Below are positions 10,801 to 57,980 of a stretch of DNA of 64,000 nt, in pieces. Every line of letters starts with the position of its first letter. Position 1 is the first letter of the stretch. The notes beneath the pieces were generated by a model. That model saw only the letters and a program-made list of their open reading frames with translations, was not told the origin of the DNA and ran no database searches. Source of the stretch: Lama guanicoe (Eukaryota); the NCBI GenBank assembly GCA_013239625.1, contig MU056134.1, positions 4,914,714 to 4,978,713 on the forward strand, read 5' to 3'. The position numbers and the translations under genes are program-made.

Positions 10801-12588
10801 ACAGACTCTGGAGTTAACTGCCTGGGTTCAAATCCTGACTCCTCCTGTTACTAGTTATCTGGTCTTAAATTATGTAGCCTCAGGATCTGGAAAATAGGAT
10901 CAATCTCACAAGGTTGTTGAGAAGATAGAACGAGAAAATGCACGGACTGCACTTAGCACAGTGCCCAGCACATCAAAAATACTCAGTGAGTGGAAGCCAT
11001 TTATATTATTATTTCCTTCCAACTCTGTAGTCAGTGTCTATTAAGAAGACTTTTGTTCTTTCTCGTTCACCACTATAGCCCCACTGCATAGCCTAGTGCA
11101 TACCCCAGCACGTAGTAGGAGCTCAAGAAATATCTGCTGAATGATGGACTATAAGATGATCATCTAAGTATTAAATGTATATCTCTAGCTCAGACCTCTC
11201 CTCTGAGCCTCAGACTTACATATCCAACTACCTGCATTGCGTCTCTACCTGAATGGCTCGCAAGCATCCTAAATTTTAACAAGTTCAAAATAAAAACTCC
11301 TGATTCCTGCCTTCAAAACCTTTCCTTCCTCAGTTTCTTCCGTATCAGTAAATGATACCACCGTCCCCCAGTTATTAAAGTCAGACATCTGGAAATTATG
11401 CCAGAATCTTTCCTCTATCTGACACTAACACATTAATAAATCCTGTTTCTACCTCCAAGATACTGTGAACCTACCCATTTCTCTCTGTATCTTGTACTAT
11501 AACCCTTGCCCAAATCATTTCTTGCCTAGAATACTGCACTGGCCTCTGAATGGTCGCTTTCACTCTTGTCACCCTCAAATCTAAATTCCGCACAGCAGCC
11601 AGAGTGACATTTTAAAAATGCAAATCAGGGGGAGGGTATAGCTCAAAGTGATACAGCACATGCTTAGCATGCATGAGGTCCTGGGTTGAATCCCTAGTAC
11701 CTCCCCTAAAAAGTAAATAAACAAATAAATAAACCTAATTACCTCCCCCCTCAAAAAAAAAAACCTAAAAAAATACAAATCATATCAAGATCATGCCTTT
11801 GCTTAAACCTGTTTCCTTTACACTGCAAATAAATCCAACTCCTTTACTCCAGCTTGCAAGGCCATAATCTGGTTCCCACCCTCTGTGACAATCACATTCT
11901 ATTCCATTCTTTACGTTGCTTGCTACTTTCCAACTACATTGGACTTTTTCTCAATTCTTGAATATTCTGAATTCTTTCCCATGTGAGGACTTTGGCATAA
12001 GCTATTTCCTCCGCCTGAAAAGCTCTGCCTTCTTCAGAATTCTGGTCCTCATTCCTCAAGTCTTGGCGTTAAACTTCACCTCTCAGAGAAATTTTCCCTG
12101 ACCACCACAAACAAATGCTCCCTGGTGTCGTACTCTATTCTCAAAGTTTCTTAATCACTTCTTTAACAATGTTCTGTTTCTTGTATAACTTTCCTATAGT
12201 CTGTAAGTTCTGAGAGGGAAAGGACCAAGCCTATTTTGGTCTTAGCTATATACCCAGCACCGAGAGCCAGACACATATAGTTGCCGCTCAGTATTTGTTG
12301 AATGAAGAAGTCAGGATCAAAGAACAGAACTCTGCCGTGGGCGCAAAAGGCTGGCCGGGGGCGTGACCTCTTTGGAGGCGGAGTTTCCCAACCTCGACCA
12401 GGACCGGAAGCCTGGGCGGGGCTTCCCACCGTGGGCGCTCACGCCTCAGGGCGGGGCTAAGCGGGCAGTGATTTCGCGGTCGGAGTTGGGGCTTATATTC
12501 TCTCTCCCCGAGCAATTTCCTCCCCCAGAGCCCTGGCTCACCCGAAGGCACCTCTCCCCACCACTCGGATCCGCTCGTACTTCTCCAT
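4899..12588 (-). CDS. NEK8: NIMA-related kinase 8 (NPHP9), 698 aa; N-terminal kinase plus RCC1 repeats
   Basis: Exons: 12588-12542, 10529-10324, 10107-9875, 9643-9512, 9007-8799 (GC donor), 8643-8564, 8480-8299, 8177-8027, 7633-7557, 7232-7115, 6447-6297, 6073-5910, 5810-5652, 5468-5310, 4927-4899; total 2097 nt. Starts [16 protein letters not shown]; contains [20 protein letters not shown] and RCC1 motifs (VACG, WGRG); ends ITDEPVPP*. Confidence 0.97.
10676..11010 (+). mobile_element. MIR fragments
   Basis: tgtgtgacactttgggcaagtcattgaac, ctgggttcaaatcctgactc, gcacttagcacagtgcccagcaca. Boundaries approximate. Confidence 0.6.
11050..12305 (+). mobile_element. L2 LINE fragments (NEK8 intron 1)
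   Basis: L2 3' signatures (cccagcacgtagtaggagctcaagaaatatctgctgaatga; tcagtatttgttgaatgaa) and body ctcagacctctcctctgagc. Boundaries approximate. Confidence 0.6.
11628..11768 (+). mobile_element. tRNA-Ala-derived SINE, camelid Vic-1-like, inserted in an L2
   Basis: GGGGGAGGGTATAGCTCAAAGTG...GCTTAGCATGCATGAGGTCCTGGGTTGAATCCC (A/B boxes) with A-rich tail; 14-bp TSD aaaaatgcaaatca (11614-11627) / aaaaatacaaatca (11769-11782). Confidence 0.8.
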
Positions 12589-17056: not shown

Positions 17057-20043
<2,987 letters not shown>

Positions 20044-20270: not shown

Positions 20271-21880
20271 CGACACGTGTTTATTTGCTGCGGCGGGTGG
20301 ATGAAGTAGTCCGCTACTGCGCGGATCTGATCCTGAGTGTTTCGCATCTTGAGCAACTTTAGGGAAGGGGATTACAGTTCAAAGAGACAGTAACACTGCA
20401 AACTGGAATTAATATACTGTAGTTAGATTGGCTCAGGTAGAGTAAAGCAAAATTCTAGAACGGTAGAGCAGAATTTGTGCAGTCCAACTCCCTCAGACAA
20501 CATCTGTGGAAACTGAGGTCGAATGAGGGGACGGCTTATTAATAACACAGTGATTCCGTGGAAGAAAAAAGTCAGGCGGAGGAGAGGTGCTAAGTGTCAG
20601 AGAAGGTGGATGGTGGTCACATCTGTCCCTCTTACCAGTGGCAGATTTCATGCGTTTTCCCTATTTCATGTGATTTCTCTTGAAGAGATTCAACAGATAT
20701 TCCAAACACCTAGGGCACAGATTTCTCCAGGATTCGCTCTTCTTGTGAATACTTTCATTCACAGTCCCCTCCCTTTAAGTAGTCTTCCCTGCCTTGCTCC
20801 AGGCAACTTTACATCCTCAAATTCAGTCCCTGACACAGAGCAAAGTTTAGTAAATCTCAGGTTTGCTTCTCTGTGCTTTCCCCACACCCACACCGCCTTT
20901 CTGCCCTCTCCCTCCCCTTTGGAATCAGAGTTTCCCTTTGAAGATGAGATTTGTTATGTGCTATCCCCTCTTCTATCTTGCAGACTGCGAAAAGGAAAAG
21001 TTGTCCTTGAGGGGAGGGAGATTTCCAATGGGGACAGAGCGAAGAATGCCCACACTGGTGGGGCGTCCCCATGTACCAGAGCAGTGAACTCTTCGAAGGG
21101 CGGAATTCTCGGTTCCCCTAGCCCTCTTTTATCCTCCATTGAGGGAGGCAGCTTGGTTTTTGGCCCTCCAACAATTCAATCTACAGGGCAGCCTAGGAGG
21201 AAAAGGCACTAGGCTTCGGACATCTCTCTCCTTGGTGGGCACTTCGTTCCGACCCTAGCACTCCCTCTAAGCTCTCTCCCACCACCCCCCAGGGTAAAAG
21301 GGCGAGCGGGGGCAGACCCTATGAGTCACGTCCTGGCCCTAGAGTTGAGGGAAGCGCCGCCTCTCCTAGAGCCCCTTCTCTCCCTCTTTCCCCTCCCGCT
21401 GGTTCCTGGCACAGCTAGATGCTGCGCAACAGCCACCGATTCCCCATCACCAATTCGTCTGGGTAAGGGTCCCCATGGACGCGCCGCTCGGCACCGGCGG
21501 TGCAGAGGAGAGCGACCTGGGGGATGGATCCCCATCTTGGCAGGTTCCAGCCTGGGTGGGGGCGATCCTGGTCCCCTGTGAGGCGTCTGGCGGGGGAGCC
21601 TGAGCTGGGGCAGCGCCGGAGGGAGGAGAGGAGGGGGAGGCCAGGGCTGGCTGCGAGGCAGGGAGCTGCTGGGAGAGGGGCGGGGGGCGGCCCTTCTCCA
21701 GGAATTTCCGGGGATCAAGTTACAGCACTCGCCGAGGGAGAGCCGAGTGGGACGCGAGGCCCTGCAGTGGACTGGGTCCCTCGCCCCCTCCTCCAGCAGT
21801 CCACCGGCCTTGCTGCGCGGTCCCTGCCCACACTGACCCCGAGTGGCGGGGCCGCGCCGCGCCCCCCGGACCTCTCTGTT

Positions 21881-22237
21881 ATGGTGGGGTCGCCTCAACC
21901 CCGAGTTGTCGTCGGGTCTCCACGGCCTCGCGTTATTGTAGGAACTATCCGGCCCCGAGTTATTGTAGGGTCTTCGAGGACCCGGGTGCCTCCAGACGGG
22001 ACTCCCCGCCCGCATTTGGCGGCCGAGGGGTCTCCCCGACCCCGAGTCGTCTTCGGGACGCCCCGGGCCCGAGTGATTGTGGGTTCACCCCGGCCCCAGG
22101 TGACTGTCTCATCCCCGTGGCCTGCGGTGGTCGTAGCATCCCCGAGGCCACGGGCTCCCGTAGGTTCTCCGTGGCCCCGAGTTATAGTCGGGACCCCTCG
22201 GTCGCGGGTGATTGTCGGGTCTCCGCGGGCCCGGATC
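21881..22237 (+). repeat. Degenerate ~27-bp coding tandem repeat, 13 units, encoding the NARR repeats
   Basis: Recurring cgagttattgtaggg / cgagtgattgtggg / cgagttatagtcggg units; 11 units of 9 codons and 2 of 10. Confidence 0.85.
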
Positions 22238-23509
22238 GCTGGGGCGGATCAGGCCTCAGCGCCTTCTCAGGGCTCCCCGCAAGGCCGCAGGCAAGATGAA
22301 CATTCTGGCGCCGGTGCGGAGGGACCGCGTCCTGGCGGAGCTGCCGCAGGTAGGTTGGCGCCAGGGCCACGTCGGGCTTCTGGCTGCGGTGGGTGTGGGC
22401 GGGAAGAAGGAGGCACCAGACGGGTTAGAAGCTTGGGCCCAGCCCTGCCGCCCAGCTAGGCTTGCTGCTTCTGGGTGGTCCCCTCCCCACCCCAGCCCCG
22501 GGCTGCTGGGCATCTGGACTAGGGCCAGGAATGGGTGAGTCCCATTCTCTTCCATCCCTTTCAGTGCCTGAGGAAGGAGGCCGCTTTGCACGTGCACAAA
22601 GACTTCCACCCCCGCGTCACCTGCGCCTGCCAGGAGCACCGGACAGGCACCGTGGGGTGAGTTAGAGACACCCGGAATAAAGAAAGGAAGTCCCAGAAAA
22701 GCTGTAGTCAAAGCAAGGGTACAGAGCCAACAACTTGGGGCTCCATTTCAGCCTCTACCAGCTATGTGGTTATTTCCCCTTTTCATGCCCCTGTGTTCTT
22801 CCCTTTCTTCCAGCAAGGTTGTGGAGAGTGCTCTGAGATGGGGTGGGGTAGAAAGGTGGCAGTTTAATTTCTGACACTGAGAAGATGTCCAACACGAGGG
22901 TGTGGTCACCAACTCAGCTTCCCACACACCATCTATCTGGACTCCAGGGCAAGTGGTATTGCCTAGAGGGTTGAGTCCCATTGTAGGTGGAAAAAAACAA
23001 AGTAGTAGTTATAAAAGTTGGCCACAATTAACTGAGCACTTACTGTGTCCCAAGCTGTATGTTGGGTACTGTTATTGTCCTTTATTAAATGGAAAACATC
23101 TTCACTTTTAAGATGTATCTGATTTCAGAGTTGTTAAAATTGTGTGTGTGGGGGGCTATATCTCAGAATATAGGACATTTATCTCATTTTAACCTTTGCA
23201 ACAACCCAGTAAAATATATGTTAAATCCCCAGTTAACAAATGTTGTAACTGAGGCTCAGAGAGATTAAGAAATGTGTCCTAAGTCACACAGCTAGTAAGT
23301 GTGAGAGCTGGAATTCAAATTCACTTCTCTCTGATACTGAAGCACAAAACACTCCTCTCCAGCACATCTGTCCAGGCCTGGTGTCTATGGTAACCTCAGC
23401 CTGGGTGCACCTAACTTTGTGGACCTACTATATAGGGAGCATTGGGACTCCTCTGGGTGAAACAGCTAGTGCTCACTCTTACTGCTCACTCTTGTGTCAG
23501 CAGATTTAA
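21881..23509 (+). CDS. NARR: NARR (nine amino-acid residue repeats), alternative-frame protein overlapping RAB34, 188/189 aa
   Basis: ATG 21881 (gttATGg); exons 21881-22349, 22565-22656, 23501/23504-23509. Thirteen ~9-aa repeats of type IVGSPRPRV, then ...GRRQDEHSG...VPEEGGRFARAQRLPPPRHLRLPGAPDRHRG(Q)I*, matching human NARR as recalled. Confidence 0.88.
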
Positions 23510-24966
23510 GATCTCCAAGGTCATTGTGGTGGGGGACCTGTCAGTGGGGAAGACTTGTCTCATAAATAGGTAAGAGGTTCCTGGAATGGAGCTGGATTGG
23601 GGTGGGCAGGGTGGGGCCAGGCCTAGCCAGGTAGGCTGGGCTAGGGCCAAGAGCATCTGGTGCCCTCTCAGGTTCTGCAAAGACACTTTTGATAAGAACT
23701 ACAAAGCCACCATTGGAGTGGACTTTGAGATGGAACGATTTGAGGTTTTGGGCGTCCCCTTCAGTCTGCAGCTGTGAGTTCTTCCTCTGCCCCTTCCCGC
23801 CATTCCTTCCCCCAGCACCTATATTCCACCTCAGCCATCACCACCCCCCTGCCCCATATAAACCTGTGTTTCCCCCTTCCTTCCTTCCAGCTGGGATACC
23901 GCGGGACAGGAGAGGTTCAAATGCATTGCGTCGACTTACTACCGAGGAGCTCAAGGTATGGGTCTGGGTGAAATGGGCTGGTTGGGTGCACCTGGTCTCT
24001 CATCTAGGGCTGGGGGAGGATTGTGGAAATGATCCAGTAGTGTTTTCCCCAACAACCTGGGGTTGTTTCTGCCACTCTTCCAGCCATCATCATTGTCTTC
24101 AACCTGAATGATGTGGCCTCCCTAGAACATACCAAGTACGTGGGGATGCTGAGCTATAATGGGGACTCTGGGGAGGAGAGGGTTCAGAAAAGAGGAGGGT
24201 TGGGGGCATGGTAGTGAACAAGAATGCATCCATGACCAAAGAGCACTGGGTAATCGGGCATACGAGTATCAGCAGGAGAGCCTGGCCATCTCCCTCATCC
24301 CTCACTGTCTGTGGCCCACCTGTGGCAGGCAGTGGTTAGCTGATGCTCTCAAGGAGAATGACCCTTCCAGTGTGCTTCTCTTCCTCGTGGGTTCCAAGAA
24401 GGATCTGAGTGTGAGTGTGCCAGTGGGGGGACTTCCCGCCTTGGTGAGGGGAACCCCACCCTCAGCACCTGACTCTGACTTTCCTTCAGACTCCTGCTCA
24501 GTATGTGCTGATGGAGAAAGACGCACTCAAGGTAGCCCAAGAGATGAAGGCCGAGTACTGGGCAGTCTCATCTCTCACTGGTGAGTCAGAGGCCTCCGAC
24601 CTTCTGTGGCATTCCTGCCTATGTTGCCTCTCACTCCTACACCTCCAACTGTGCCCATTGATCCCAGGCCTGGAACTGCCCTGAGCACCTATCTGCTCCC
24701 TGTGTCAGGTGAAAATGTCCGGGAATTCTTCTTCCGTGTGGCAGCACTAACCTTTGAGGCCAATGTCCTGGCTGAGCTGGAGAAATCGGGGTGCCGCCGC
24801 ATTGGGGATGTTGTCCGTGAGTGCCTGCCTGGATGAGGGTGGCAGAGAGCACAAGGACCCTCCAATCCCTGCTTCACATATTTCCCACTCTTCTTCAGGC
24901 ATCAACAGTGATGACAGCAACCTCTACCTAACTGCCAGCAAGAAGAAGCCCACATGCTGCCCATGA
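22296..24966 (+). CDS. RAB34: Ras-related protein Rab-34, 259 aa (260 aa with the proximal NAGNAG acceptor)
   Basis: Exons 22296-22349, 22565-22656, 23504(or 23501)-23569, 23672-23773, 23891-23955, 24084-24135, 24329-24410, 24490-24580, 24709-24816, 24899-24966; total 780 nt. Motifs GDLSVGKT, WDTAGQE, SKKD and C-terminal CCP. Confidence 0.97.
23020..23345 (-). mobile_element. MIR (RAB34 intron 2)
   Basis: actgaggctcagagagattaagaaatgtgtcctaagtcacacagctagtaagt. Boundaries approximate. Confidence 0.6.
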
Positions 24967-25298: not shown

Positions 25299-25304
25299 AT
25301 TAAA
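25299..25304 (+). terminator. RAB34 poly(A) signal
   Basis: ATTAAA about 330 nt after the stop. Confidence 0.65.

Positions 25305-36546: not shown

Positions 36547-57980
<21,434 letters not shown>

What the first reader, a model, noticed from the sequence alone, without database searches (positions are those of the whole stretch)
21881..23509. Dual-coding locus: conserved NARR repeat protein overlapping RAB34
Seen: an intact ORF with 13 repeats, 11 carrying S/T-P and mostly followed by R-x-R (CDK/MAPK-like sites). It shares RAB34 exons 1-3 in another frame, its ATG is in strong context, no ATG occurs in the 415 nt before the RAB34 ATG, and its stop lies in exon 3 of 10. Known: human NARR is a nucleolar, mitotically phosphorylated protein of 198 aa (recalled), so this copy has one repeat fewer. 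Inference: the ATG-free stretch suits leaky scanning on a bicistronic mRNA, which could also protect it from NMD. Not new in principle, but often unannotated and the most unusual coding structure here.
Basis: partly seen in the sequence, partly recalled or inferred. Interest (0 to 1): 0.7.

Follow-up and report, generated by a model that had tools for sequence, protein, structure and literature searches.

The report
Known NARR gene overlapping RAB34
This is a placental mammal's intact, ordinary copy of NARR, an already described repeat protein written in a second reading frame over the start of the RAB34 gene, and both proteins are likely read from one shared message.

Summary
Confirmed and already known. 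ATG 21881 opens a 188-aa frame over RAB34 exons 1-3, ending at TAA 23507-23509; RAB34 (259 aa, 10 exons) starts 415 nt later in another frame. It is the orthologue of human NARR (PMC3167632; GENCODE ENST00000636154) and as long as mouse NARR. It holds 12 nine-residue repeats plus a half unit, the usual mammalian count; human, chimp and gorilla gained one. Selection on this frame is clear: no frameshift in 3,297 aligned codons against 3.5-4.6 per 100 in the flanks; repeats differ mainly at third codon positions (p 9e-5). Leaky scanning on a shared mRNA stays slightly ahead (0.5 against 0.4). No RNA reads could be laid, so expression in this species is untested. The scan's earlier notes held nothing on NARR. 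One loose lead: a rat gene model fuses NARR repeats in frame to the RAB34 GTPase.

The parts
21881..22349 (+). Exon 1 coding part: NARR codons 1-156; its last 54 nt are also RAB34 codons 1-18
   Evidence: donor CAG|GTAGGT
21881..21883 (+). NARR start codon, context GTT-ATG-G
   Evidence: Met1 in 44 of 44 equal-length cores, which were picked out by their MV start
21899..22228 (+). 12 nine-residue repeats (two carry one extra residue), consensus P-R-V-I-V-G-S/T-P-R
   Evidence: TRF sees only a 27-nt period over 21899-21975
22296..22298 (+). RAB34 start codon, context AAG-ATG-A, 415 nt after the NARR ATG
22565..22656 (+). Exon 2, coding in both frames
   Evidence: NARR frame 228/240 identical in 8 distinct relatives' sequences
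23501..23503 (+). Tandem NAG acceptor; its use would add one residue to each protein (NARR 189, RAB34 260)
   Evidence: the human 198-aa record has the extra Gln
23504..23569 (+). Exon 3; NARR stop TAA at 23507-23509, 60 nt before the next junction
23672..24966 (+). RAB34 exons 4-10 (23672-23773, 23891-23955, 24084-24135, 24329-24410, 24490-24580, 24709-24816, 24899-24966), stop TGA ending 24966
21321..21462 (+). Predicted upstream exon (5' end unknown) with ATGs at 21321 and 21419 and donor TGG|GTAAGG after 21462
   Evidence: gene models of chimp, orangutan, Weddell seal and Peromyscus leave the matching exon at this point
22271..22271 (+). Predicted acceptor inside the NARR frame; joined to the 21462 donor it gives RAB34 in frame from ATG 21419 and drops the NARR ATG
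   Evidence: computed; this join was not seen in any fetched record
22126..22126 (+). Weak possible donor GCG|GTGGTC after NARR codon 82; joined to exon 2 it would give a 323-aa NARR-RAB34 fusion
   Evidence: rat model A0A0G2K738 has this join and length
21700..22400 (.). CpG island (GC 0.68-0.72, CpG observed/expected 0.74-1.0 in 200-nt windows starting 21700-22200)
25299..25304 (+). ATTAAA, likely poly(A) signal

Best explanation
The stretch is an intact, single-copy orthologue of NARR, a 188-aa basic repeat protein kept under selection in a frame that overlaps RAB34 exons 1-3, and it is likely translated from the first AUG of an mRNA that also carries RAB34, which ribosomes would reach by leaky scanning. 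Shown here: the frame, the overlap, the repeats, selection on the frame, orthology (about 0.97). Shown in human only (PMC3167632): protein, nucleolar location at rDNA, mitotic phosphorylation of the repeats. Inferred: because the NARR stop lies downstream of the RAB34 start, re-initiation cannot make RAB34, so on this mRNA the NARR AUG acts as an overlapping upstream frame that lowers RAB34 output and exposes the message to NMD unless leaking ribosomes clear the downstream junctions. Inferred for the protein: a disordered chain (net charge +21, no Lys) whose 12 Arg-flanked V/I-rich units bind nucleic acid or acidic nucleolar partners by many weak contacts, loosened when a proline-directed kinase phosphorylates the S/T-P sites in mitosis.
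For: Geometry. One match in the genome by DNA and by protein. 31 of 4,000 and 20 of 7,993 scored candidates are hits, mostly 83-92% identical; mouse A0A140LIX7 is 188 aa. 0 frameshifts in 3,297 aligned codons of the NARR-only part (24 relatives) against 53 in 1,511 upstream and 50 in 1,088 in intron 1; identity 86% against 66-69%: (23 and 10 distinct sites). Repeat-to-repeat identity by codon position 0.64, 0.72, 0.38, p 9e-5. Exon 2 in the NARR frame 30/30 in Peromyscus against 46/77 for the same shifted frame past the stop, p 7e-6. Shared mRNA: the 2011 paper found the same first exon and no data for two mRNAs; GENCODE lists it as cotranscribed with RAB34; unnamed records P0025 and P0040 run from upstream of the NARR Met through spliced exons 1-2-3. 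Disorder: AlphaFold2 mean pLDDT 40, pTM 0.10, which fits but does not prove it.
Against: No reads of this species were laid, so neither transcript nor translation is shown here. The same GENCODE row says 'transcribed from an alternative TSS'. The NARR start has -3 G and +4 G, which should limit leakage. The ATG-free stretch is expected by chance, and 10 of 53 cores (the 6 named ones all carnivorans) have Met74 between the two starts. The exon-1 overlap (289/342, 84.5%) is no better kept than the shifted-frame control (1,359/1,614, 84.2%), and the monkey comparison for exon 2 was not significant (29/30 against 45/55, p 0.09); splicing signals could also hold exon 2 fixed. 2 of the 26 relatives aligned (P0031, P0032; left out of the totals) have two frameshifts each in the NARR-only part. 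Hits were found with the NARR frame, which favours intact copies, and shifts on this genome's own branch are counted many times. No site fits S/T-P-x-K/R.
Confidence: 0.5

Rival explanations
1. Same real NARR gene, but the two proteins come mainly from different transcripts: long first exons make NARR, while RAB34 comes from starts downstream of 21881 or from the upstream exon spliced to 22271. Promoter and splice choice, not leaky scanning, sets the ratio.
For: Donor after 21462 and acceptor at 22271 join in frame with RAB34 and drop the NARR ATG. Gene models of four species leave the matching upstream exon at that donor. GENCODE comment 'alternative TSS'. Good NARR start context; Met74 tolerated in carnivorans; the region is a CpG island, where dispersed starts are common (general knowledge).
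Against: None of the fetched models joins that donor to the 22271 acceptor; the search with the upstream exon gave 4 hits of 97 candidates, all unspliced read-through. GENCODE marks the pair as cotranscribed. The 2011 paper had no data for two mRNAs.
Confidence: 0.4
2. The frame is kept only as a regulatory upstream ORF that dampens RAB34; the peptide does not matter.
For: No function is established for NARR; two relatives appear frameshifted; no fold.
Against: Residue-level constraint: many V/I, G and R columns are invariant in 44 of 44 cores; third-position bias among repeats; 6 of 9 length variants are whole or near-whole repeat units; stable protein seen by MS, antibody and imaging in human cells, and by antibody in five mouse tissues.
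Confidence: 0.07
3. Chance open frame in a GC-rich CpG island, conserved for promoter reasons.
For: GC 0.69; stop-free by chance in 5% of shuffles; the third frame is also open for 231 codons.
Against: The flanking island DNA takes frameshifts freely while this frame does not; the codon-position signal is frame-specific (191 synonymous to 72 non-synonymous single differences against 46:179 and 33:204 in the shifted frames); published protein evidence.
Confidence: 0.02

Closest known systems
Human NARR (PMC3167632; ENST00000636154, NM_001256281 as listed in the supplement of PMC6886504)
   Same: Start upstream of RAB34, overlap with exons 1-3 of 10 in another frame, three coding exons, nine-residue repeats, no Lys, pI about 12; 116 of 138 residues identical in the NARR-only part (P0080).
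   Different: 12 repeats against 13; 188 aa (189 with the upstream NAG) against 198; Val-Val where higher primates have Asp-Asp at 9-10; Gln73 where most relatives have Arg; the exon-2-skipped form stops at 176 aa here.
Mouse NARR, UniRef A0A140LIX7 (named RAB34)
   Same: 188 aa, same register and end; 86% identical over the 156 aa of exon 1.
   Different: Scattered substitutions only.
Other 5' UTR coding frames with confirmed proteins (MIEF1 and MKKS loci, PMC6886504 section 7); p16/ARF as an overlapping-frame pair (named in PMC3167632)
   Same: A second protein coded ahead of, or across, a known CDS on the same strand.
   Different: NARR is a long repeat protein and overlaps its neighbour by 152 nt across two introns; no sequence relation was tested or is claimed.

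Membership tests
NARR | Start codon upstream of the RAB34 start, different frame, overlap with RAB34 exons 1-3 of 10 | tested here: met
NARR | 12 (non-human) or 13 nine-residue repeats, consensus PRVIVG(S/T)PR | tested here: met
   12 full units; definition from PMC3167632
NARR | Basic, Pro/Arg-rich, Lys-free, predicted unstructured | tested here: met
   Pro 17.6%, Arg 16.0%, no Lys, pI 12.0; pLDDT 40
NARR | Orthology: high identity, single copy, same neighbourhood | tested here: met
   SNORD42 and snoZ17 pairs upstream on the other strand fit the RPL23A neighbour (recalled)
NARR | Family profile match | tested here: inconclusive
   All 51 hits carry precomputed PF27509.1, name not shown; the local Pfam copy gave 0 families for 4 of 4 proteins, mouse NARR included
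NARR | Repeat sites match the CDK1 consensus (paper's wording) | tested here: inconclusive
   Minimal S/T-P met at 12 sites; S/T-P-x-K/R at 0 of 12; S/T-P-x-x-R at 9 of 12
NARR | Transcribed and translated in this species | not tested
   No reads were laid; run shares alone are a hint
NARR | Nucleolar location at rDNA, mitotic phosphorylation | not testable with these tools
   Shown for human in PMC3167632
Leaky-scanning bicistronic mRNA | Both proteins made from one molecule, weak first AUG, no AUG between | tested here: inconclusive
   No AUG between but expected by chance and not kept in carnivorans; first AUG has -3 G and +4 G

The most novel reading that the evidence does not exclude
The locus is a three-way switch: besides NARR and RAB34, a donor inside the repeats (after codon 82) splices to exon 2 and makes a 323-aa chimera in which about eight phosphorylatable nucleolar repeats replace the 18 N-terminal residues of RAB34, the region reported as needed for ciliogenesis, giving a cell-cycle-gated, relocated Rab GTPase. 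The only support is one rat gene model (A0A0G2K738) and the same in-frame GT in this window; 23 in-frame GTs in the stretch would all give such fusions, so the join may be a modelling artefact.
Probability: 0.07. Interest if true: 0.6.

Novelty: already known. Interest (0 to 1): 0.2.

Why it matters
As a discovery it matters little: NARR was described in 2011 and is annotated in human and mouse. It is still a clean natural case of dual coding in a mammal, and a practical caution: knock-downs or 5' edits of RAB34, a ciliogenesis and ciliopathy gene (review PMC12089063, passages), can also hit NARR, and databases file NARR under the name RAB34, which has led at least one paper to call NARR a small GTPase (PMC11092395, passages). 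How the two starts are shared, left open in 2011, seems still open in the papers I could search.

Tried and rejected
The run search listed 14 RNA or presumed-RNA runs of 24 holding 0.30-0.39 of 426 sampled words; an mRNA without the NARR part would give about 0.22-0.24 and one with it 0.31-0.38, but retained introns can give as much, so this is not counted as evidence. ESM Atlas: window protein not held; mouse NARR gave one bacterial cluster at 0.77, no lead. Profile search of 1.84 billion proteins: 29 hits, 6 at E <= 1e-30, all NARR; of the 22 weak hits not already known I read 11, all unrelated tandem or low-complexity repeats; no marsupial, monotreme or non-mammal NARR among named hits, which does not prove absence. 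AlphaFold2 gave no usable model, so no fold search was run. A bacterial promoter scan was irrelevant and empty. Longer NARR-RAB34 fusion models in bat, Old World monkeys, human and tamarin depend on retained or extended introns or a modelled frame change and were set aside as annotation noise. dN/dS across species could not be computed: no relatives' DNA was on hand. Paper searches with no hit: RAB34 + ribosome profiling + alternative open reading frame, RAB34 + leaky scanning, a recalled RefSeq id, a recalled UniProt id. Three RAB34 papers were not held. Earlier scan findings: none by sequence; eight unrelated phage overlaps by words.

Full report
Observation. Splicing the window at GT-AG sites gives a 188-aa frame from ATG 21881 through exons 21881-22349, 22565-22656 and 23504-23509, ending at TAA 60 nt before the exon 3 donor; RAB34 starts at 22296, 415 nt later and one base out of frame, and runs 259 aa over 10 exons. 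The two frames share 152 nt. The protein has 17.6% Pro, 16.0% Arg, no Lys, pI 12.0, net charge +21. In register there are 12 nine-residue units (residues 7-116) and an N-terminal half unit; 12 S/T-P sites, of which 6 are S/T-P-R-x-R, 9 S/T-P-x-x-R, none S/T-P-x-K/R or P-x-S/T-P. The locus is single-copy in the genome by DNA and protein search. The organism is a placental mammal; best named hits at 90-92% are donkey, peccary, bats, musk deer and seal.

What is known. PMC3167632 (read: abstract, methods, results, discussion, parts 1-4 of 5; its three supplementary figures could not be read, and they hold the EST and gene maps) reports human NARR by mass spectrometry: 198 aa, 13 repeats against 12 in other mammals, overlap with the first 3 of 10 RAB34 exons, nucleolar, at rDNA clusters, six repeat sites phosphorylated in nocodazole-arrested cells, mode of expression left open. 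PMC6886504 (read: section 7, passages, and rows of supplementary files 4 and 7; files 1 and 8 were not searched) lists it as ENST00000636154 and NM_001256281, three coding exons, conserved in mammals, 'contranscribed with RAB34' and 'transcribed from an alternative TSS'. PMC11092395, PMC8969249 and PMC12089063 were seen as passages only; the other papers only as search listings.

Orthology and repeat number. Searches with the 156 aa of exon 1 gave 31 hits of 4,000 candidates and 20 of 7,993 longer ones, all with precomputed PF27509.1. Mouse A0A140LIX7 is 188 aa. Of 53 distinct cores from 82 records, the window's own included, 44 have this length; three have +9 residues, two +18 (elephants), one -8, three lose 1-3 residues. 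Human, chimp and gorilla have the extra unit; orangutan and gibbon do not. A tandem NAG acceptor at 23501/23504 adds one residue, which the human record has: 198 = 188 + 9 + 1. So this copy is the common form. A profile search of 1.84 billion representatives found 6 strong hits, all NARR, and weak hits of which the 11 I read were unrelated repeats; named true hits are all placentals.

Selection on the frame. I aligned 26 relatives that run into flanking sequence to the window with a frameshift-aware script. In 24 of them the NARR-only part shows 0 frameshifts in 3,297 codons and 85.9% identity; upstream DNA 53 in 1,511 (66.5%), intron 1 50 in 1,088 (68.9%); these fall at about 23 and 10 distinct sites. 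The other two (P0031, P0032, unnamed) have two shifts each inside NARR and were left out of the totals. The hits were found with this frame, so intact copies are favoured. Independent of relatives, the 12 repeats in the window are 0.64, 0.72 and 0.38 identical at codon positions 1, 2 and 3 (permutation p 9e-5), with 191 synonymous to 72 non-synonymous single differences against 46:179 and 33:204 in the shifted frames; the register was set on the protein and pairs are not independent. For the dual-coded part I used the same shifted frame past the NARR stop as control: exon 2 is 228/240 identical in 8 distinct sequences, the control 1,359/1,614 in 19 records, the exon-1 overlap 289/342, no better than control. 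Matched pairs: Peromyscus 30/30 against 46/77 (p 7e-6), monkeys 29/30 against 45/55 (p 0.09). Splicing signals in exon 2 could contribute.

How the two proteins are made. On an mRNA holding 21881 the NARR AUG comes first and its stop lies beyond the RAB34 AUG, so re-initiation cannot yield RAB34; leaky scanning would be needed (established scanning rules; inference). For this: same first exon and 'cotranscribed' in the two papers, and unnamed records P0025 and P0040 that run from upstream of the NARR Met through spliced exons 1-3. Against: the start has -3 G and +4 G; given the protein only three codon pairs could form an out-of-frame ATG, P(0) 0.28-0.49; 10 of 53 cores have Met74. A second route is in the sequence: a donor after 21462 joined to an acceptor at 22271 drops the NARR ATG and gives RAB34 in frame from ATG 21419. 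Models in chimp, orangutan, seal and Peromyscus leave the matching exon at that donor, though to other acceptors. I put leaky scanning on a shared mRNA at 0.5 and mainly separate transcripts at 0.4; both may operate. With seven junctions downstream, the NARR stop meets the usual NMD rule (general knowledge); escape is untested. No reads were laid, so nothing here shows expression in this species.

What the protein likely does. AlphaFold2 with 16 sequences gave pLDDT 40 and pTM 0.10. Invariant V/I, Gly and Arg columns, the charge, and the human data on rDNA location, mitotic dispersal and repeat phosphorylation fit a disordered multivalent binder of nucleic acid or acidic nucleolar partners that is released by proline-directed phosphorylation. 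This is inference; no binding was tested.

Verdict. Already known; interest 0.2. New here are details: the arithmetic of the human length, the ape-specific and elephant repeat gains, the weakness of the ATG-free argument, the NARR-skipping splice route, two apparently broken copies, and a rat model (A0A0G2K738) that joins NARR 1-82 to RAB34 exon 2, which the window's GT after 22126 would reproduce at 323 aa. That chimera is the boldest open reading (0.07). That the mode of translation is not in print rests on the searches only.

Noticed in passing
window 22126 and 22565: In-frame GT after NARR codon 82 would join to exon 2 to give a 323-aa NARR-RAB34 fusion, the join and length of rat model A0A0G2K738; a stronger-looking in-frame donor CAG|GTGACT lies at 22099.
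   Followed up: partly
window 23563-23565: The exon-2-skipped NARR form, 241 aa in many mammals' annotations, meets a TAA here and ends at 176 aa, which suggests that its long tail is not under selection.
   Followed up: yes
proteins P0031, P0032, P0048 (unnamed records): NARR-like sequences with two frameshifts each in the repeats (P0048 is a near-copy of P0032); lineage loss or sequencing error, species unknown.
   Followed up: partly
window 21604-22299: The third frame is open for 231 codons without an ATG, and its TGA overlaps the RAB34 ATG.
   Followed up: no
window 21467-21880: The NARR frame is open for 138 codons upstream of the ATG, with CTG or GTG in good context at 21605, 21647 and 21767; relatives are frameshifted there, so an extension is unlikely to be conserved.
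   Followed up: partly
window 22097-22099 (NARR residue 73): By hand arithmetic this matches human Arg82, where the supplement of PMC6886504 lists missense variant rs11545700 with a sitting-height association; the residue is Gln here and varies among mammals (Arg 30, Gly 9, Gln 4, Pro 1 of 44).
   Followed up: no
window 17187-19564 (minus strand): Two SNORD42 and two snoZ17 snoRNAs, in what is likely the head-to-head neighbour RPL23A (recalled).
   Followed up: no
window 11632-11705 (+) and 54416-54498 (-): Two weak tRNA matches near the Rfam threshold, possibly tRNA-derived repeats.
   Followed up: no
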